A DNA stretch of 64,000 nucleotides from an uncultured Candidatus Saccharibacteria bacterium (GTDB lineage: Bacteria > Patescibacteriota > Minisyncoccia > Phycocordibacterales > DATGWK01): NCBI GenBank assembly GCA_964428845.1, contig CAYRZH010000004.1, positions 3,228-67,227 on the forward strand, written 5' to 3'. Positions 24,006 to 58,353 of this stretch are shown piece by piece (position 1 is the first letter of the stretch; every line of letters begins with the position of its first letter). The translations under genes were made by a program, and so were the position numbers. The notes under the pieces were generated by a model. It ran no database searches. It was given only the letters and a program-made list of their open reading frames with translations, and was not told the DNA's origin.

Positions 24006-24893
24006 CTAGAGTTTTTTCTCCGCCTCAATAAAAAGATCCAGATCCCCTTCCAATACATCATCAATTTTCGCTGTCTCTGCCTCCGTCCGATGGTCTTTTA
24101 CCATTTTATACGGATGCATCACATATGATCGGATCTGACTTCCCCATTCATTGCTAGTGGTTTTGCTGATATACATCCCCTTTTCCTTCGAGATTCGCTC
24201 ATCTTCAAGTGCACGGAAGATCTTACCGCGCAGTATTTGCAGAGCTTTTTCTTTATTTTGCGCCTGGGAGCGCTCGTTTTCAGAATGAGCGGCAAAATTG
24301 GTTGGAATATGGACCACACGGACCGCCGTCTCGCGTTTATTTACATTTTGCCCGCCAGGACCGCTCGAGCGCGAGAATTCGTAGCGAAGTTCGGTCTCGG
24401 GAATGTCAAGCTCGGTCACTTTTTCAAACTTCGGTATGACTTCAACCATCGAAAACGACGTATGGCGAAGTTTTTTGGCACTAAACGGCGACACCCGGAC
24501 CAGACGGTGGACACCAGACTCATTTTTTAAGGTTCCATAGACATTTTTCCCAGAAATTTCAATCGTGACGTTGCGGTAGCCGCCGTGATCATTTTCGTTT
24601 TTATGGATAACGCTCACCGACCAGCCCCTTTTGGAAATATATTTTAGATACATCGAGAGCAAAATATGCGAAAAATCCTCGGCATCATCGCCACCGGCAC
24701 CAGAAAAGATGGTCATAATGGCGTCATTTTTGTCGTATGGTCCGCCGCCATCCTTGCGTGTCCGCAACTCTTCGAGCTCTTTTATGACAGCTTGGGCACG
24801 GTTTTTGTCAGTCCAAAAGTCAACAGAGGTCATCTGTTGCTCGAGTTCCTGTATTTTTTGGCCTATTTCCTCGATACTTTCGCTTTTCATCAT
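24006..24893 (-). CDS. prfB: peptide chain release factor 2 (short N-terminus, no obvious +1 frameshift site)
   Basis: GGQ motif SGPGGQNVNK and RF2-specific SPF motif RVSPFSAKK. 295 aa, so about 65 aa shorter at the N-terminus than E. coli RF2. Confidence 0.75.
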   Translation of the reverse strand: MMKSESIEEIGQKIQELEQQMTSVDFWTDKNRAQAVIKELEELRTRKDGGGPYDKNDAIMTIFSGAGGDDAEDFSHILLSMYLKYISKRGWSVSVIHKNENDHGGYRNVTIEISGKNVYGTLKNESGVHRLVRVSPFSAKKLRHTSFSMVEVIPKFEKVTELDIPETELRYEFSRSSGPGGQNVNKRETAVRVVHIPTNFAAHSENERSQAQNKEKALQILRGKIFRALEDERISKEKGMYISKTTSNEWGSQIRSYVMHPYKMVKDHRTEAETAKIDDVLEGDLDLFIEAEKKL

Positions 24894-25002
24894 ACAAGTA
24901 TAGCAAAGTGTGCCGCCTTCTACTCAACAAAATCCTGACAAACACCACGAGAGAACTCTTGGAGGCCGCATAAGTGACTTCCGATTCTTGAGATGTCAGA
25001 TT

Positions 25003-25100
25003 CCCAATAATACCTCGATGAAGTCTTGCGAGCGCGACGGCGCGAGCACGAGGAATTTTTCAGCAGAAAAATATCCGTGCGAAGCGAGGTATTATTGGGG
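25003..25100 (-). repeat. copy 1 (E1) of a ~70-nt GC-rich element nested in a host hairpin, immediately 3' of tRNA-Thr
   Basis: Host inverted-repeat arms ccccaataatacctcg/cgaggtattattgggg enclose the core cttgcgagcgcgacggcgcgagcacgaggaattttt-cagcag-aaaaatatccgtgcg. The same core recurs at 57972-58078 and, inverted, at 31647-31756. Confidence 0.7.
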
Positions 25101-25112
25101 ACCTGACTTAAT

Positions 25113-25185
25113 TAGCCACCCCCGAGGATCGGACTCGGGACCCCCACTTTACGAAAGTGGTGCTCTACCAACTGAGCTAGGGTGG
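25113..25185 (-). tRNA. tRNA-Thr (anticodon CGU); noncanonical T-loop UCCGAUC
   Basis: Manual fold: acceptor GCCACCC/GGGUGGC, D-arm GCUC...GAGC, anticodon stem CCACU/AGUGG with loop UUCGUAA. T-stem CCGAG/CUCGG. Confidence 0.7.
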
Positions 25186-25349
25186 CGCAAGTTCAATTTA
25201 AACGATTTTAAGCCCTGTGACAATAAGACATGCGGGGAGCTCAACTATCCAAAACCTCACATAGCCTACTGTTAATAGGTTGCTATATCTTATTGTCGCA
25301 GCACTGCTACAATAAACCCATAGCAGATTAATGAAAAATTGCATAAGTC

Positions 25350-28300
25350 ATGAATGATAAATTTAAAAGTGGTTTAGTGCCACTGTTTCTCGTTACTTTG
25401 TTTCTTTTTGTGGCAGTGTTGGCCGGTTTTTCTGGCTTTTCACTGCCGTCCGGCGGACCGGACATCACCGGCCAGGTGATCACGTCACAGCAACCGGCAG
25501 CACCCACTATTCGTCCCGGCTCTGGGTGGTCTGGTCTGACTCCAACTCCCGCAGCCAGGGGCAATGGCCCAACCCCGATCGCGAGGTGGGATGTGGTCCC
25601 ATACCAAACTATCACGGGAAAATTTGGAATCGGAATCCCAGCCTTTCATATAAACGGCATTGAAAGAGTCGATTTTGCCGTCAATGGCGGCAATTGGGTA
25701 TCAGTAAATCAGATGACCAAAAACCCCTATTCTGGAGGGGTGGTTGAATATTGGGTTGAGATTGATGCAAATGACTTCCCTGTGGACGGTCCTGTAGAAA
25801 TACGTGCGACAGTCATCCCAAGCTCTGGCACTCCGATAGTCTTCCAAGGCAATGATCTTACCGAAGAGACAACCCATGGTGTACACTCAATGTTTATAAA
25901 CACCAACTCTCGTGGCACTCTCCCATCCCACACGAGATATGTCGACCCGGTCAGAGGTAATGACTCTACGGGCGACGGCACTGAAAACAACCCATTTAAG
26001 TCTATAGTCGCCGCTGCGGCTGATATAACGACTGACAGTGGTTCAAGCGACGGCGGTATTGTCTACTTGAAAGCCGGCGAATATTTCTGGGGAACAGAAG
26101 GAACTACCCCGAGAATTATTACCAACAACAGATGGCTCACGATCAAACCAGCTCCAGGACTCACAAAAAATCAGGTGAAAATAACTGATACCTCATCAGG
26201 AGGGCTCAAAACAAAATTCGTAAAGATCGAAGATGTCCACGTACACAACACTATTGTCGGGTCTGCTGGTGCAACAAACGTCTGGGCAGACAATGTTCTC
26301 TTCACCGGGAATGACTTGTCTAGTTTCGAGTTCCCTCTAAGAAATTCGGACTGGAATCTCATATACGGTACAAACAATAAATACTCGATGATGCGTCGCG
26401 CGATTGGAGGCTACACCCTCGGAAGAAATCTGACTGTAGACCACATCGGCGGCGATATGTTCAAAACCCCTTACGCGCTCATAAACGTAACTGGTTCAAA
26501 TCTTATTGATGCCAACCCAAACCTCGGAGCGGCAGAAGGAGACATTCATAGAGATGTCGTGCAGATACAGAGTCCACCAAAGAGATGGCTTATCTATGGA
26601 CTTACTGCTACAAAAAATATCTCTGGACAAGACTTCTTCGCAACCTGCGGAGCCGGAAGAGAGGGATGCAATTTCAAAGATGTTGCGTTTGTCAACTACA
26701 TGGTGAATTCAAAAAGTCTTGTTGCTGGTAAATGGAATATAGCTGGAGACCACCTACTCTTATGGAATATGTTTCATGGCTCTACACTATCCTTCCCTAG
26801 CCATGAGGAAGGCAGGCCAAAAATACTGACCAACCTAAGTATTAGAAATAGTGTGTTTGGGGCTTTGAGTGGGTTCAACCCAGTGTATTGGAATATAAAC
26901 AACGGTGGCAACTTTGCCATAGACAACCACTACATCAGCGGCCGAAATGTCTACGGTATCAACTACACGACCGGCGGATCGCTTGCTGAAATCTTTACCA
27001 AGTACACCACCTTCGATGCTCCAGATAACGACTTCCACCCTAAACCAGGCTCTGTTCTAGTGAACGCTAACCGCCCTCTAGCAGCTGCGCGGCAAGTTCT
27101 AGCTGACCGAGAGTGGACTCCTGTCCCTGCCGGTCCAACCATGGCCATTGGGCCGCTACAGGCACGTGGCACAGCTCCACTTCCAGAGCCAGAACCAAAC
27201 CCAATAACTGAACCAGACCCAACCGACCCAATCATTCCTGATCCGGGAGAAGAATACGACCCTGCCCCGCCGCCTGAAGTCATAGAGATTGGTTCTCAGG
27301 TAATAACCCAGGAGGGGATCCGAGTTAGAGCAGCTCCGTCCACAAACGCAACAATTGTAGGCAACCAAGGAAGAGCCTCTATCGGTATCGTGACCGATGG
27401 ACCAACTTCAGCCAATGGAGAGAGATGGTGGAAAGTTGATTTCCAAAACGAAATTGACGGATGGGGCCCCGAAACTTCTTTGGTTGTTTATGACCCACCA
27501 TCATCATCACAAGGACCTACATCTCCTGTCACTTCCCTACCAACCAATCTGCCATATATGGGAGGCGGACAACCTACCGGAAGGGTCTTCTATGTAGATC
27601 CTAGGACAGGATCGATGAATAACAACGGAAGCGAGGCTAGACCTTGGAGTACAATCCAAGAGGTTATTGCCGCTAAAAAAATTCAATCCAAAGACAAGAA
27701 CGGTGCAACGGTAAACCCTAACGGGCCAGTAAAATCTGGAGACACCATCTACCTTCGAAATGGCAACCATGGAGGCATAAGGCTAGGACGATATTTCAAC
27801 GACAACTACATCACTATCGCTGCCGAGCCAGGACATATTCCGGTCGTAGACTACATAAGCCTGACTGGCGGCAAAAATTGGGAATTCCGAGGCTTGAAGG
27901 TTTTGGGAAATCCTCGAAATCCTGCTCCAAAGAAACACCTGGTAACAGTCAGAGGATACACTTCAACCGGCCCGGCTTCAAATGTAAAAATTATTGGTAA
28001 TGATATTCGAAGTGTGGAGGATGCCTCTACCCTGACTCTGCAGGATTGGCTAAATAGGCCGGCAGGTATTCAAGTATGGAGATCACCTGGAATAGAAATT
28101 AGAAAAAATCTTATCGAAAGCATTGACGTCGGCATCGGCGGCATAAGCGATGGCGCTATCGTCTCTGAGAACTGGGTCAATGCCTTCGCCCACGATGGTT
28201 TGCGCGGTGGTGGCAGTAATATTCTCATAGAGAATAATCGAATCACAAACTCTATTAATAACGGAAATAGTTTCCATAGAGACCTGATTCAGTTCTTCGG

Positions 28301-30107
28301 CGTAGGTGGCGGCAGAGGCCCTGGATGTTTCTGCAACAACGTTATTTTCCGCAACAATTTCCTTGCCAATAACACCGGTCCATTCAACAGAGCCTTCCAG
28401 GGTCGCCTCCAGGGAGTTGGACTCTTCAACGGCCCATATGCCAACTGGACGATCGAGAATAACGTCATCTTGGGTGTTGGAAGTAACGGAATCAGTAGCG
28501 AGAGATCGAGTGGTTTTAAAGTAATCAACAATACGCTTATCGGCAGACAGTACGGTTCCTCCGTAATCGTTCCTGGTCAAATGAATAAAACCGGAATCCG
28601 TCTTGATAACAACAGTAGCAACATCGTCAGCAACAACATTGGTAGCATATCCCAGACTCTTGTAAACAAATATCCAGGGATGAAGAACATTTCGGTCTCC
28701 ACAGAAGCGGCGGCCGACAGATACTTCGCAAATTGGAGGGCTCAAGACCTCCGTCTAAAATCTGGCAGTCCTGCCATAAACGCTGGCCTTGCGACATATG
28801 CCCCTCCTCGTGACATTACTGGATCATCTCGAGACTCTCGCCCAGACGTTGGCGCCTATGAATATCCTGGGGGTGAAAACCTTCCCGTACCTACTGAACC
28901 GCCGCCTACCCAAGAGCCAACACCCCCAACAACTCCTAACCCAACAGTTCCACCAACCACCACAGTTCCTCCTACAGGCCAGATTTCTCTCGGATCGACA
29001 GTGGAGATAACAGAAAAGATTCGTGTGAGAGCCGAGCCTAATGGTGCAAGAATTGGTATTCAGAATAAGGGAGCTTTGGGTGTGATTGCTGAAGGACCGA
29101 AGACCGTAGGTGAATTCAACTGGTGGAGAGTTGACTACAAAGAGGGTGTAGATGGTTGGAGCGCGGACAAGTTCTTCATCCTAAAATCTTCACCATCAGG
29201 ACCTGGAACACCAACAACACCACCGACAACTCCTACGACCCCTCCTACTACAGGAGTTACTAACCCAACTCCTCCCGGAGGAACAGTCAGTACAGAGCCT
29301 GTCGGACCCGCTATACCTATCACCTCCCCTACTCTAGGCACTACACCTACAGTCACTGCACCTAGCGCCGGCCTCTCAATGCATTTCAAGTTTGATGGCA
29401 GTATAGCTGATTCTATAAAAGGGGTCTTGGGAATATCAGAAGGGGCACTTTCCTACACCGACGGTAAGATCGGCCAGGCAGTAATACTTAACGGTTCAAA
29501 CAATGCCATAACCCTAGGAAACAAAACTCTGAACGATTTGGGCATCGGGAACCAATTCACAATCTCTGCTTGGATTTTGTCGGATGACGCATCGAAGAAT
29601 CGAGCATCTGTGTTTACTAAAGGTGCCATCGGTGCAGGTGCAGACAATGCATCCATTGATCTTATAATAGCTTCAGGCGACGCAAGACTTCGAGTAAGCA
29701 ATGGCACAACTGTTGTTACCGCCCCTTCCAACTCTTCAAATAGGATAATCTCAAACACCTGGTATCTTGTTACCGGCACGTTCAATGGGAACACTGGAAC
29801 AGCTAAACTCTACCAAAACGGAGTAAAGATCAAGGAATCTACCGAAGCTTCAGTGGCTATGCCAAACGACTCAAGTTCGGTTCTGGCTACAGGTATAGGT
29901 GTTAGCGCCGGAAACGACAAGGCATACTTCAAGGGAAAGATCGATGATCTGCGCATCTACAATAGAGTTCTTTCTGATTCGGAAATAAAGGGTCTCTATG
30001 ATGGCAGTGTGCTTGGCGCCGAAGATCGCAGAGGTTCATACTTCGCAGCTGTAGCTAAGGGAATAAATAACTTCTTCGCTTGGTTTGTTGGTTTGTTTGA
30101 AAACTAA
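25350..30107 (+). CDS. giant surface protein: N-terminal anchor, parallel beta-helix (pectin-lyase-like) repeats, Pro/Thr linkers, two SH3-like repeats, C-terminal LamG/concanavalin-like domain
   Basis: 1585 aa. Beta-helix repeats such as NNRITNSINNGNSF. Two paralogous ~60-aa segments (IRVRAAPSTNATIVGNQGRASIGIV... and IRVRAEPNGARIGIQNKGALGVI...) each follow PTxP-rich linkers. The C-terminal LamG-like part is LRIYNRVLSDSEIKGLYDG. Confidence 0.75.
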   Translation: MNDKFKSGLVPLFLVTLFLFVAVLAGFSGFSLPSGGPDITGQVITSQQPAAPTIRPGSGWSGLTPTPAARGNGPTPIARWDVVPYQTITGKFGIGIPAFHINGIERVDFAVNGGNWVSVNQMTKNPYSGGVVEYWVEIDANDFPVDGPVEIRATVIPSSGTPIVFQGNDLTEETTHGVHSMFINTNSRGTLPSHTRYVDPVRGNDSTGDGTENNPFKSIVAAAADITTDSGSSDGGIVYLKAGEYFWGTEGTTPRIITNNRWLTIKPAPGLTKNQVKITDTSSGGLKTKFVKIEDVHVHNTIVGSAGATNVWADNVLFTGNDLSSFEFPLRNSDWNLIYGTNNKYSMMRRAIGGYTLGRNLTVDHIGGDMFKTPYALINVTGSNLIDANPNLGAAEGDIHRDVVQIQSPPKRWLIYGLTATKNISGQDFFATCGAGREGCNFKDVAFVNYMVNSKSLVAGKWNIAGDHLLLWNMFHGSTLSFPSHEEGRPKILTNLSIRNSVFGALSGFNPVYWNINNGGNFAIDNHYISGRNVYGINYTTGGSLAEIFTKYTTFDAPDNDFHPKPGSVLVNANRPLAAARQVLADREWTPVPAGPTMAIGPLQARGTAPLPEPEPNPITEPDPTDPIIPDPGEEYDPAPPPEVIEIGSQVITQEGIRVRAAPSTNATIVGNQGRASIGIVTDGPTSANGERWWKVDFQNEIDGWGPETSLVVYDPPSSSQGPTSPVTSLPTNLPYMGGGQPTGRVFYVDPRTGSMNNNGSEARPWSTIQEVIAAKKIQSKDKNGATVNPNGPVKSGDTIYLRNGNHGGIRLGRYFNDNYITIAAEPGHIPVVDYISLTGGKNWEFRGLKVLGNPRNPAPKKHLVTVRGYTSTGPASNVKIIGNDIRSVEDASTLTLQDWLNRPAGIQVWRSPGIEIRKNLIESIDVGIGGISDGAIVSENWVNAFAHDGLRGGGSNILIENNRITNSINNGNSFHRDLIQFFGVGGGRGPGCFCNNVIFRNNFLANNTGPFNRAFQGRLQGVGLFNGPYANWTIENNVILGVGSNGISSERSSGFKVINNTLIGRQYGSSVIVPGQMNKTGIRLDNNSSNIVSNNIGSISQTLVNKYPGMKNISVSTEAAADRYFANWRAQDLRLKSGSPAINAGLATYAPPRDITGSSRDSRPDVGAYEYPGGENLPVPTEPPPTQEPTPPTTPNPTVPPTTTVPPTGQISLGSTVEITEKIRVRAEPNGARIGIQNKGALGVIAEGPKTVGEFNWWRVDYKEGVDGWSADKFFILKSSPSGPGTPTTPPTTPTTPPTTGVTNPTPPGGTVSTEPVGPAIPITSPTLGTTPTVTAPSAGLSMHFKFDGSIADSIKGVLGISEGALSYTDGKIGQAVILNGSNNAITLGNKTLNDLGIGNQFTISAWILSDDASKNRASVFTKGAIGAGADNASIDLIIASGDARLRVSNGTTVVTAPSNSSNRIISNTWYLVTGTFNGNTGTAKLYQNGVKIKESTEASVAMPNDSSSVLATGIGVSAGNDKAYFKGKIDDLRIYNRVLSDSEIKGLYDGSVLGAEDRRGSYFAAVAKGINNFFAWFVGLFEN

Positions 30108-30134
30108 CCAAAAGATTGAGCTTGGGGAAATTAC

Positions 30135-30160
30135 AAAACAGCGCCTGCGGGCGCTGTTTT
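30135..30160. terminator. bidirectional rho-independent terminator
   Basis: aaaacagcgcc-tgc-gggcgctgtttt: a perfect palindrome flanked by A- and T-runs. It serves the giant + gene and the minus-strand tRNA. Confidence 0.75.
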
Positions 30161-30190
30161 GGTTTGCTAGAGAATTCCAACCTCCAAATG

Positions 30191-30263
30191 AGCCAATGAT
30201 CGGGATTGAACCGATGACCTCGCCCTTACCATGGGCGTGCTCTACCAACTGAGCTACATTGGC
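30191..30263 (-). tRNA. tRNA-Thr (anticodon GGU)
   Basis: Manual fold: acceptor GCCAAUG/CAUUGGC, anticodon stem CGCCC/GGGCG with loop AUGGUAA, T-loop UUCAAUC. Confidence 0.75.
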
Positions 30264-31644: not shown

Positions 31645-31646
31645 AG

Positions 31647-31756
31647 GGGTCTTGAATAGGATACCTCGTCGAGCACGGATAAATTTTTGCTAAAATTTTC
31701 CTCGAGCTCGCGCCGTCGCGCTCGCTAGTCTCGCCTCGCCATCTATTCAAGACCCC
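31647..31756 (+). repeat. copy 3 (E3) of the hairpin-nested ~70-nt element, between lexA and dinB
   Basis: Host arms ggggtcttgaataggat/atctattcaagacccc (the lexA terminator hairpin) enclose cgagcacggataaatttttgctaaaattttcctcgagctcgcgccgtcgcgctcgc. This is the reverse-complement orientation relative to E1/E2. Confidence 0.65.
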
Positions 31757-33748: not shown

Positions 33749-36777
<3,029 letters not shown>

Positions 36778-41505: not shown

Positions 41506-41559
41506 GGTAGTCATAGCCAGAAAACCTCATGTTTTTAAGGGCTTTTGGCTATGACTACC
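41506..41559. promoter_or_regulatory. 13-bp perfect inverted repeat with a 28-nt spacer, upstream of the DGR target gene
   Basis: ggtagtcatagcc ... ggctatgactacc, ~60 nt upstream of the target start on the minus strand. Confidence 0.3.
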
Positions 41560-56963: not shown

Positions 56964-57026
56964 AATCGATACAATGTATCAAATTTTTCCTCCCCTATCA
57001 ATTTAGATTTGGTTTGCCGATTTTTT

Positions 57027-57047
57027 GTGTCGGGGGTGGGAATTGGC
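57027..57047. repeat. partial duplicate of the tRNA-Met 3' end (att-scar-like), with a second inverted fragment at ~57100-57125
   Basis: tgtcgggggtgggaattgg matches the tRNA-Met 3' end tgtcgggggtggggattga ~130 bp upstream. gtggggattgaaagg occurs in inverted orientation at 57100-57125. Confidence 0.4.
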
Positions 57048-57164
57048 GATTACATCGCCAGGCGCTTTTCGATCTCGCTCTCTACACTTCGCTCGATAAC
57101 GAAAAGCCTTTCAATCCCCACACGCGCGCAACTCAAGTTGCGCTCACCCCTCCATATTTCATAT

Positions 57165-57236
57165 GTCGGGGGTGGGGATTGAACCCACGACCCCGGGCTT
57201 ATGAGTCCCGTGCTCTACCAACTGAGCTACCCCGAC
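57165..57236 (-). tRNA. tRNA-Met or tRNA-Ile2 (anticodon CAU), elongator type (G1:C72 paired)
   Basis: Manual fold: acceptor GUCGGGG/CCCCGAC, anticodon loop CUCAUAA, T-loop UUCAAUC. Confidence 0.75.
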
Positions 57237-57389
57237 AATTTTTCAAATGCTACTTCCCAAAGGCTCTGGCGCCAAGCGCCAATTTCTAAATTATCCATAA
57301 AAATCGGCGAGGCGCAAACAAACACCACTTGCGCCCAAACAAAAAGCCCGGCGTTCTTAACGCGCGAGCCAGAAGTATCTCTACAAGTG

Positions 57390-57878: not shown

Positions 57879-57971
57879 ACCACCCTACCACTACCCCCCT
57901 AGCCTGTAAACCACAGCATCCACAAAAATTCGCCGGTTCAAATCCGGTTATTACACCCCCCAACCCCCAGG

Positions 57972-58078
57972 AGATCTTAATAAGTGCCCCGGCGAAGCCT
58001 TGCGAGCGCGACGGCGCGAGCACGAGGAATTTTTTAGCAAAAAAATATCCGTGCGAGACGGGGCACTTATTAAGATCT
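57972..58078 (-). repeat. copy 2 (E2) of the hairpin-nested ~70-nt element, immediately 3' of tRNA-fMet
   Basis: Host arms agatcttaataagtgccccg/cggggcacttattaagatct enclose cttgcgagcgcgacggcgcgagcacgaggaattttttagcaaaaaaatatccgtgcgag. This is ~95% identical to the E1 core, while the arms are unrelated to the E1 arms. Confidence 0.7.
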
Positions 58079-58093
58079 CTAGAACAATTCTTG

Positions 58094-58165: not shown

Positions 58166-58353
58166 ATTTGTCACCATCCTACCACAAAGTTTAGTCGGTT
58201 AAAAGAGGTGTTCGGTAGCGTCTGCCACAGAGTATCGCTCGAGGATTAGGAAAATCTCCCGCTGGGGAGATTTTCCGCTCTCCGAGAGCGATACTCTGTG
58301 GCAGACGAGTTTATCCGTGCGAGGCAAGACGTGCTACTCAAAACCCTCTCGAA

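What the first reader, a model, noticed from the sequence alone, without database searches (positions are those of the whole stretch)
25003..25100. A ~70-nt GC-rich element recurs three times, each nested in the loop of a different host terminator hairpin
A core near-identical in E1 and E2 and visibly more divergent in E3 (cttgcgagcgcgacggcgcgagcacgagg-aattttt(c/t)agca(g/a)aaaaat-atccgtgcg...) occurs at 25022-25093, 57998-58068 and, inverted, at 31663-31735. Each copy is flanked by a different perfect inverted repeat that looks like the native rho-independent terminator of the upstream gene (tRNA-Thr, tRNA-fMet, lexA). The outer arms are AT-rich like the host and unrelated to each other; the core is GC-rich. 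The tRNA-Thr(GGU) terminator at 30135-30160 shows the uninterrupted state. This pattern points to a tiny non-autonomous element or structured RNA module that inserts into hairpin loops. That target preference is unusual, since IS200/IS605 elements and class C group II introns insert beside rather than inside hairpins. The core itself can fold: stems gcacg/cgtgc with an AT-rich upper stem aattttt/aaaaat.
Basis: seen in the sequence. Interest (0 to 1): 0.7.

Follow-up and report, generated by a model that had tools for sequence, protein, structure and literature searches.

The report
Capped long-hairpin repeats with rRNA-like tip
The three repeats are real and belong to an apparently undescribed family, found across the tiny-celled Patescibacteria, of self-contained long hairpins whose conserved tip copies a helix of 23S ribosomal RNA; the hairpin arms belong to the element and are not host terminators it jumped into.

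Summary
There are three copies of a ~60-nt GC-rich core at 25022-25084(+), 57996-58058(+) and 31670-31732(-). Each sits on a different long inverted repeat, and none is expected by chance.

The interpretation, a core that inserts into loops of native terminators, is not supported:
- The arms have no U-tract, and genuine terminators exist separately.
- Arms carry family-specific tandem G·A loops.
- Paralogues in one genome share homologous arms with compensatory changes.
- At orthologous sites in relatives the whole hairpin is present, absent or flipped. An empty hairpin was never seen.

The core is a three-way-junction cap. One hairpin is identical over 20 nt to helix 86 of bacterial 23S rRNA. 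The other is an AU-rich hairpin with an AGCA loop. Covariation is strong. Arm mismatches are almost all G·U or G·A on one strand (24 vs 4; 24 vs 1), so one strand's fold is selected whatever the flanking genes' direction.

The family occurs in Saccharibacteria, Paceibacterota, Nomura-, Taylor-, Adlerbacteria and Minisyncoccia, several copies per genome, and matches no Rfam family.

Best reading: a dispersed, probably mobile, structured RNA or ssDNA element whose unit is the entire capped hairpin. Its function is unknown.

The parts
24995..25107 (+). E1, whole capped hairpin. P1 arms are 24995-25017 / 25085-25107. The tandem G·A junction loop is 25018-25026 / 25080-25084.
   Evidence: (81.6 bits)
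25027..25048 (+). E1 hairpin A (helix-86-like): U-GC-[GA]-GCG-(CGACGG)-CGC-[GA]-GC-A.
25049..25079 (+). E1 hairpin B: CGAGGA, an AU-rich stem, an AGCA loop, then UAUCCGUG. It has a conserved G·U, an A·G and a bulged A.
57971..58079 (+). E2, whole capped hairpin. P1 arms are 57971-57991 / 58059-58079 (21 bp perfect). Hairpin A is 58001-58022 and hairpin B is 58023-58053.
   Evidence: 81.9 bits
31646..31756 (-). E3, whole capped hairpin of the 'cta/tcgagg' subtype. Outer arms are 31743-31756 / 31646-31659. An internal C-GA-G/C-GA-G loop and an inner 4-bp stem follow. Hairpin A is 31705-31726 and hairpin B is 31674-31704.
   Evidence: 84.1 bits; 100% identical over 62 nt to L066
58219..58325 (+). 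Degenerate or variant family member. It is a 27-bp-arm hairpin (58219-58245 / 58281-58307) with a tandem G·A and a hairpin-B-like cap but no hairpin A. An orphan 3' core piece ATCCGTGCGAG follows at 58313-58323. It sits upstream of tRNA-Met, where relatives L123 and L126 carry full elements.

Best explanation
Each copy is one self-contained 'capped hairpin' of about 110-170 nt. It belongs to a dispersed repeat family found across Patescibacteria (CPR).

Anatomy: a long, copy-specific helix (P1, 14-30 bp, often with a tandem G·A internal loop) carries a conserved three-way-junction cap of about 60 nt. The cap has two hairpins:
- Hairpin A matches helix 86 of bacterial 23S rRNA exactly over 20 nt: tandem sheared G·A, a GCG/CGC stem and a CGACGG loop.
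- Hairpin B is AU-rich, with an AGCA loop, a conserved G·U and a bulged A.

Shown here:
- The fold is conserved by covariation and is specific to one strand.
- The unit that is gained, lost, duplicated and inverted in evolution is the whole hairpin, arms included.
- Orientation relative to neighbouring genes is arbitrary.

Inferred:
- The element spreads as a whole hairpin through a single-stranded intermediate of the 'sense' strand (RNA or ssDNA). That intermediate must fold, and its cap is recognised by a conserved cellular factor, plausibly one that normally binds helix 86 of the 23S rRNA.
- After insertion the arms drift under a pairing constraint, so old copies such as E1-E3 no longer share arms.
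- Recombination between the two arms can flip the cap.
- Any benefit to the host, such as an RNA processing or stability site, is unproven.
For: Structure:
- Over 31 copies, 93% of cells pair and 20 of 28 pairs change on both sides. None of 500 shuffles reached this, and slid controls gave 36-61%.
- The closing pair of hairpin A is A-U 15, U-A 14, C-G 1.
- The hairpin B stem is fully replaced in L072.

Strand specificity:
- P1 mismatches are G·U-type 24 against A·C-type 4, and G·A 24 against C·U 1.
- A G·U is conserved in 24 of 30 copies.
- By my own tally from the and listings, the bias also holds in copies antisense to their flanking genes.

Distribution:
- The same core occurs in Saccharibacteria, Paceibacterota, Nomura-, Taylor-, Adlerbacteria and Minisyncoccia MAGs.
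- There are at least 5 copies in MAG ELA554.
- The core is the only element DNA shared with those loci, at 84-100% identity; the only other matches are two tRNA hits and one unrelated weak hit (35649-35735 to L102).

Whole hairpin as the unit:
- Arms of paralogues are homologous and covary.
- Presence or absence varies at 5 syntenic sites among the window, L123, L126 and L130.
- The hairpin is inserted between genes that overlap or abut in other relatives.

Inversion: in L123 against L130 (adjacent polymerase 81% identical) the flanks are collinear. The internal 83 nt match at 58/83 only after reverse-complementing, against 45/83 directly.

Orientation relative to co-directional neighbours is about 7 sense to 11 antisense.

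rRNA likeness: the 20-mer lies inside the LSU rRNA of L007 and L055 and matches E. coli 23S at about positions 2348-2369.

No Rfam family matches.
Against: - No transposase, integrase or reverse transcriptase was found. No recurrent neighbouring protein family appears next to copies. Only fragments of genomes were available.
- No target-site duplication or recent insertion with a matching donor copy was seen.
- Expression is untested, and no sigma-70-like promoter precedes the sense strand of E1-E3.
- RNA and ssDNA cannot be told apart from sequence.
- Near-100% core identity across CPR classes would fit a host-essential RNA as well as horizontal spread.
- The genome scan required the exact 20-mer, so the invariance of hairpin A is partly ascertainment. 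Relatives L123, L126 and L130 have divergent hairpin A versions.
- The window's own 23S rRNA could not be examined.
Confidence: 0.45

Rival explanations
1. It is a family of host-beneficial small structured RNAs, either independently transcribed genes or cis-acting RNA modules. The helix-86-like cap binds a ribosomal protein or ribosome-assembly or processing factor. The long P1 duplex serves as a stability or RNase III-type processing element.
For: - The cap is conserved across the phylum, covariation is strong, and wobble and G·A pairs are confined to the sense strand.
- The 20-mer is exactly identical to 23S helix 86.
- Copies sit in short intergenic spacers and beside tRNA genes.
- A few copies have a -10-like hexamer about 15 nt upstream of the hairpin base: 4 of 30 on the sense side against 0 on the antisense side.
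Against: - Presence, subtype and orientation differ at orthologous sites between relatives, and the element is absent in several.
- No genomic context or promoter is conserved.
- Several copies lie directly behind a terminator on their sense strand, leaving no room for a promoter.
- Tens of copies per roughly 1-Mb genome would be unusual for a housekeeping RNA. That copy number is extrapolated from 3 per 64 kb.
Confidence: 0.3
2. A core of about 60-70 nt is the mobile unit, and it inserts into the loops of pre-existing host hairpins such as terminators.
For: - The arms of E1-E3 are unrelated to each other and AT-rich.
- Long uncapped hairpins do exist in these genomes, for example window 41506-41559. 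In L112 a plain 15-bp hairpin sits directly 3' of a tRNA, where L042 has capped ones.
- Different cap subtypes occupy the same site upstream of tRNA-Met in L123 and L126.
Against: - The arms lack U-tracts.
- The arms contain the family's tandem G·A motifs and semi-conserved inner sequence.
- Paralogues share homologous, covarying arms.
- Empty orthologous sites have no hairpin at all.
- In L123 the insertion equals the whole hairpin.
Confidence: 0.1
3. The copies are pseudogene fragments of the 23S rRNA gene (the helix 86-87 region) scattered by recombination or intron homing.
For: - The 20-mer equals helix 86.
- The flanking GACU and AUCCG-UG resemble the rRNA context.
- CPR 23S genes are rich in mobile insertions (PMC11270868).
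Against: - Only about 30 nt resemble rRNA, and hairpin B and P1 do not.
- The copies covary as an independent fold.
- The variants in L123, L126 and L130 keep the fold but not the rRNA sequence.
- Copies occur many times per genome and always on a long helix.
Confidence: 0.03
4. The copies are chance similarity or recent segmental duplications within this genome.
For: None beyond the similarity itself.
Against: - No match occurred in any of 100 shuffles.
- The flanks are entirely different.
- The same core is found in dozens of other CPR genomes.
Confidence: 0.01

Closest known systems
REP/BIME elements of proteobacteria (mobilised by RAYT transposases)
   Same: Short, non-coding hairpin-forming repeats. 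They are dispersed in intergenic spacers and 3' UTRs, occur in either orientation, and have many copies per genome.
   Different: In REPs the palindromic stem, with its GTAG end, is the conserved part and the loop is trivial. Here the tip is conserved and the stem is copy-specific. REP sequences are species-specific, whereas this cap is conserved across a phylum. No RAYT gene was seen.
MITE-like bacterial repeats (Correia/NEMIS, RUP, ERIC, Rickettsia palindromic elements)
   Same: Small, non-autonomous, structured elements that are gained and lost at orthologous sites and may be co-transcribed.
   Different: MITEs have conserved terminal inverted repeats and target-site duplications. Neither was found here. 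The arms differ between old copies and evolve by compensatory change.
Ribosomal-RNA mimics in r-protein operon leaders (for example the L1, L10, S8 and L20 binding sites)
   Same: A short RNA hairpin reproduces a piece of rRNA structure and sequence outside the rRNA gene.
   Different: Known mimics are single-copy 5' leaders of the operon they regulate. These elements are multi-copy, have no fixed gene association, occur in either orientation, and copy helix 86. To my knowledge no autoregulatory partner is known for that helix.
Intervening sequences (IVS) in 23S rRNA helices 25 and 45
   Same: Extended stem-loops of about 100-150 nt that replace a hairpin tip. They are patchily distributed, are thought to spread horizontally, and have long stems cut by RNase III. 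Short IVS-like insertions are reported in CPR rRNA genes (PMC11270868).
   Different: IVSs sit inside rRNA genes at fixed helices. These elements are intergenic and have a conserved cap.
Integron attC sites
   Same: Strand-specific folded hairpins in which structure, rather than stem sequence, is conserved.
   Different: attC sites conserve the base of the stem (the R/L boxes) and extrahelical bases, and their centre is variable. They lie at cassette boundaries next to an integrase. None of this applies here.
Invertible DNA segments bounded by inverted repeats
   Same: The segment between the two arms is found in opposite orientations at orthologous loci (L123 against L130).
   Different: No invertase is associated, the segment is only about 80 nt, and no promoter is evident inside it.

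Membership tests
Rho-independent terminator (as the identity of the flanking arms) | A short loop (3-8 nt) and a run of U directly after the 3' arm | tested here: not met
   The loops are 67-83 nt. The tails are atctcaag, ctgggggt and tttgggac. The terminator scan does not flag them.
Rho-independent terminator (as the identity of the flanking arms) | The hairpin pre-exists at orthologous sites that lack the core | tested here: not met
   Sites without the element have no hairpin: L118, L119, L126, L129, L131.
MITE / non-autonomous IS derivative | Terminal inverted repeats conserved between copies | tested here: not met
   The arms of E1-E3 and of most copies are unrelated. Only recent paralogues share arms.
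MITE / non-autonomous IS derivative | A target-site duplication flanking the element | tested here: inconclusive
   No direct repeat flanks E1-E3 or the L123 insertion. The 'AAG' repeat is part of a G·A loop. No recent insertion with a known empty site in a close strain was available.
MITE / non-autonomous IS derivative | A related autonomous element encoding a transposase in the same genomes | not tested
   Only 8-21 kb fragments were held. No protein family recurs next to copies.
REP/RAYT system | A conserved palindrome with a GTAG-type 5' end, and a RAYT gene flanked by REPs | tested here: not met
   The stems are not conserved and no GTAG end is present. The RAYT gene was not searched genome-wide.
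Any Rfam 15 RNA family | A covariance-model match | tested here: not met
   Only tRNAs were found at gathering score in the window and in 12 CPR loci. Nothing was found at E<=10 around E1.
Conserved structured RNA (generic criteria) | Compensatory base changes supporting each helix | tested here: met
Conserved structured RNA (generic criteria) | Transcription of the modelled strand | not testable with these tools
   No expression data were available. Strand-specific G·U and G·A bias supports folding of that strand but cannot separate RNA from ssDNA.
23S rRNA helix 86 | Sequence and fold of E. coli about 2347-2370 (CUGC-GA-GCG-UGACGG-CGC-GA-GCAG) | tested here: met
   The match is 20/20 to Gemmatimonadales and Craurococcus 23S inside Rfam LSU hits, with one mismatch to E. 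coli. The helix number is assigned from memory of the standard 23S map.
23S rRNA helix 86 | Location inside an rRNA gene | tested here: not met
   The window has no rRNA. The copies are intergenic.
TIGR arrays (TIGR-Tas) | Tandem arrays next to a Nop-domain Tas gene, with variable spacers in loops between box C/D motifs | tested here: not met
   The copies are solitary and dispersed, the variable part is the stem, and the loop is conserved (PMC12045711).
Integron attC | Conserved R''/L''-L'/R' boxes at the stem base, a variable centre, and an adjacent cassette array or IntI | tested here: not met
   The pattern of conservation is the opposite.

The most novel reading that the evidence does not exclude
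These are a previously undescribed, phylum-wide class of element in CPR bacteria. The mobile and heritable unit is a complete long hairpin. Its conserved tip mimics helix 86 of 23S rRNA in order to engage a conserved ribosomal or ribosome-assembly protein. It spreads through a folded single-stranded intermediate and can be flipped by recombination between its own arms. On this reading it is an rRNA-mimicking genomic parasite or regulator, present in tens of copies in genomes of only about 1 Mb.
Probability: 0.3. Interest if true: 0.8.

Novelty: new variant of a known kind. Interest (0 to 1): 0.62.

Why it matters
- CPR/Patescibacteria have minimal genomes and unusual ribosomes, and almost nothing is known about their non-coding RNA or repeat biology.
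- This is a structured element conserved at up to 100% identity between Saccharibacteria and Parcubacteria-type lineages. It occurs several times per genome and copies a universally conserved rRNA helix.
- If it acts as an RNA, it points to a protein-RNA interaction specific to this phylum, and helix 86 is a concrete bait for finding the partner.
- If it is a mobile element, it reverses the usual design: the loop is conserved and the stem is free. It needs a new propagation mechanism.
- In practice the covariance model can mark these sites in CPR assemblies. The long perfect palindromes are likely to disturb assembly and gene calling. The presence, absence and inversion states are usable strain markers.

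Tried and rejected
- Rfam, at gathering and permissive thresholds: only tRNAs.
- Self-cleaving ribozyme, riboswitch (mini-ykkC-like ACGG loop), group II domain V, T-box and tmRNA readings. I considered these from the sequence. None is supported by Rfam or ARAGORN.
- Arms as phage-derived 'spacers'. Two arms and a degenerate core pattern gave no hit in IMG/VR, and the exact 20-mer gave only a chance hit in a GC-rich contig.
- Arms derived from nearby sequence. No other match was found in the window or loci.
- A conserved neighbouring gene. None was found.
- A sense-strand promoter. There is no positional signal beyond 4 of 30 copies, and none in the window copies.
- A fixed terminator-then-element arrangement. 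The enrichment on the 5' side is weak, 5-7 of 30, and I did not pursue it.
- Exact-protein look-ups for the window's own genes failed.
- The metagenome scan with the polymerase gave only distant relatives. Closer ones came from the protein database.
- I could not obtain a CPR 23S rRNA to test whether hairpin B and the junction also copy the organism's own rRNA.
- Literature searches found no description of this element.

Full report
**1. Observation**

The 20-mer GCGAGCGCGACGGCGCGAGC occurs three times in the window, at 25028-25047(+), 58002-58021(+) and 31706-31725(-). No match appeared in 100 dinucleotide-preserving shuffles, even with three mismatches allowed.

Reading the three places shows a shared core of about 60 nt. 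E1 and E2 are almost identical. E3 is a second subtype.

Each core sits between a different inverted repeat:
- E1: 15 bp perfect, 23 bp at 91%.
- E2: 21 bp perfect.
- E3: 14 bp perfect.

The arms match nothing else in the window or in any locus fetched.

E1 and E2 lie just 3' of tRNA-Thr(CGU) and tRNA-Met, both on the minus strand. E3 lies between an S24-peptidase gene and a Y-family (IMS) polymerase gene on the minus strand.

A covariance model scanned over the window with filters off finds exactly these three copies, at 82-84 bits. The next hit scores 16 bits.

**2. Anatomy**

The core is the cap of a three-way junction.

Hairpin A reads N-GC-[GA]-GCG-(CGACGG)-CGC-[GA]-GC-N'. It has a tandem G·A, and its closing pair switches between U-A, A-U and C-G (14, 15 and 1 copies).

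Hairpin B reads CGAGGA, then an AU-rich stem, an AGCA loop, and UAUCCGUG. It has a conserved G·U, an A·G and a bulged A. In L072 its stem is wholly replaced by a GC-rich one.

Over 31 copies, 93% of cells pair and 20 of 28 pairs change on both sides. None of 500 shuffles reached this, and structures slid by 1-3 columns pair at only 36-61%.

The 'AAG' at both E1 junctions belongs to a tandem G·A internal loop in P1 (E1: U-A, G·A, A·G). E2 has the same loop with a C-G pair in place of U-A. E3 has C-GA-G/C-GA-G. Such Y-GA-R/Y-GA-R loops recur in P1 of many copies, at variable distance from the cap.

**3. One strand is the folded strand**

In the P1 arms of 30 copies, mismatches read on the cap's sense strand are:
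- G·U-type 24 against A·C-type 4.
- G·A 24 against C·U 1.

By my own tally from the and listings, the bias also holds in copies oriented against their neighbouring genes. Orientation relative to co-directional neighbours is about 7 sense to 11 antisense.

So selection acts on the fold of one strand, whatever the direction of host transcription. Sequence alone cannot say whether that strand acts as RNA or as single-stranded DNA.

**4. Distribution**

It found the 20-mer in many Patescibacteria MAGs: Saccharibacteria, Paceibacterota, Nomura-, Taylor-, Adlerbacteria and Minisyncoccia. There it always caps a long variable helix.

- MAG ELA554 alone contributes five copies.
- Apart from two tRNA matches and one weak unrelated match, the core is the only DNA the window shares with these loci, at 84-100% identity.
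- E2 is 100% identical over 55-56 nt to copies in a Nomurabacteria MAG and a Saccharibacteria MAG. E3 is 100% identical over 62 nt to a Paceibacterota copy.
- No protein family recurs next to the copies.
- No Rfam family matches.
- IMG/VR lacks the element.
- Looser relatives exist with the same two modules in other arrangements.

Because I searched with the exact 20-mer, the apparent invariance of hairpin A is partly ascertainment.

**5. Likeness to rRNA**

The other hits of the scan were 23S rRNA genes and chance matches in GC-rich genomes.

In L007 and L055 the 20-mer lies inside full-length Rfam LSU rRNA matches. E. coli 23S differs by one base. Counting back from the peptidyl-transferase GAUAACAGG places the match at about positions 2348-2369. 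That is helix 86 on the standard map, which I assign from memory.

The flanks are also reminiscent of the rRNA: GACU before the helix, then a following hairpin, then AUCCG(G)UG.

Close relatives of the window genome carry versions such as CUGC-GCA-(GGCAC GAAG GUGCC)-GA-GCAG. These keep the CUGC/GCAG base of helix 86 and the G·A element, but have a covarying upper stem.

**6. Are the arms host terminators?**

The evidence says they are not.
- They lack U-tracts.
- Genuine terminators are separate, at window 30134-30161 and just 5' of the element in several other genomes.
- Two copies in one Saccharibacteria genome (L018, L071) and their orthologues (L013, L099), together with L109, have homologous arms extending about 45 nt on each side. 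In that alignment 96.6% of cells pair, 12 pairs change on both sides, and none of 500 shuffles reached this.

The arms are therefore inherited with the cap and evolve by compensatory change.

**7. Orthologous sites**

Homologues of the polymerase led to syntenic contigs. The shared gene order is S24, IMS, tRNA-Thr(GGU), tRNA-Thr(CGU), release factor, FtsE, FtsX.

By polymerase identity, L123 and L130 are closest (81%), L126 is next (73%), and the window is the outgroup (about 63%).

S24-IMS spacer:
- The genes overlap or abut in L118, L119, L129 and L131.
- They are 15 nt apart in L126. None of these sites has a hairpin.
- The window (E3), L123 and L130 carry a capped hairpin there. In L123 it accounts for the whole spacer apart from 8 and 11 nt.

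Other sites:
- L123 has a copy between IMS and tRNA-Thr(GGU), where the window and L126 have none.
- The window has E1 after tRNA-Thr(CGU), where L123 and L126 have none.
- Upstream of tRNA-Met, L123 and L126 carry different subtypes with unrelated arms. The window has a degenerate member there, at 58219-58325.
- No uncapped hairpin with matching arms was seen anywhere.

**8. Inversion**

L123 and L130 have collinear flanks and homologous outer arms (AGCAGA.../...TCTGCT). The internal 83 nt agree at 58/83 only after reverse-complementing, against 45/83 directly. The covariance model hits opposite strands in the two loci.

The cap and inner arms were therefore flipped between the arms. This can explain the arbitrary orientation of copies.

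**9. Interpretation**

The best-supported reading is a dispersed family of capped hairpins in which the entire hairpin is the unit of duplication, gain, loss and inversion.

Sense-only wobble and G·A pairs, a cap conserved across the phylum, and identity with helix 86 all suggest a folded single-stranded form that a conserved cellular factor recognises.

I favour a probably mobile, non-autonomous element at about 0.45, over a host small-RNA family at about 0.3. My reasons are the turnover at orthologous sites, the lack of any conserved context or promoter, and the copy number. The two readings are not exclusive. Loop insertion into host terminators is left at about 0.1.

**10. Limits**

- There are no expression data and no complete CPR genome.
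- No CPR 23S rRNA was available for comparison.
- No mobilising enzyme was identified, and no recent insertion with a donor copy was seen.
- The copy number per genome is extrapolated from fragments.

Noticed in passing
window 57020-57237 (minus strand): tRNA-Met (57163-57237) is followed by an insert of about 115-120 nt and then a 16/17-nt duplicate of the tRNA's own 3' end (AATTCCCACCCCCGACA, about 57029-57045). The insert holds a piece complementary to the tRNA's T-arm and acceptor 3' end (57110-57126) and GA-rich hairpins. L042 (twice) and L112 show the same layout, with the helix-86-like and AU-hairpin modules in permuted order.
   Followed up: partly
window 57925-57965 (+): An orphan T-arm-like fragment (GCCGGTTCAAATCCGGT plus a C-rich tail) abuts E2 on the side away from tRNA-Met. 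ARAGORN does not call it a tRNA. It may be a relic of an integration event.
   Followed up: no
window 25114-30263: The two tRNA-Thr genes are 92 nt apart in relative L123. In the window they are separated by about 5 kb that carries a 1585-aa LamG/sialidase-like ORF on the opposite strand (25350-30107). In L126 four other genes lie between them. The inter-tRNA gap is a variable insertion hot spot.
   Followed up: partly
window 25215-25301: A 17-bp inverted repeat (88% complementary) with a 53-nt loop lies just upstream of tRNA-Thr(CGU). It overlaps a promoter-like site (TTGTCA-17-TAAATT, 25223-25195, minus strand). It is not a recognisable family member.
   Followed up: no
window 41506-41559: A 22-bp (86%) hairpin with a 10-nt loop, no cap and no T-run. 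It shows that long uncapped hairpins also exist in this genome.
   Followed up: no
L042 5598-5710 and 7560-7672: A second cap type sits on perfect arms of 23-26 bp that start at the very 3' end of tRNA-Leu genes. Its conserved cap reads GGGACG.GUC.CG.CCUGCUGG...CUCCGAGA. L112 has a plain 15-bp hairpin at the equivalent place.
   Followed up: no
L018 1400-1700, L071 3990-4200, L013 1480-1600: Saccharibacteria loci contain tandem runs of looser relatives. Each unit is a variable hairpin, a GGAG...GAG tandem-GA hairpin, GGGGUC, an AU hairpin with an AGCA loop, and GUGACC. They may form a larger structured RNA.
   Followed up: no
window 24006-24893 (-): The release-factor gene downstream of E1 is short at 295 aa, and its PCRF domain match starts at profile position 95 of 194. 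Relatives have the same 294-aa form, so the short form is shared with the syntenic relatives L123 and L126.
   Followed up: no
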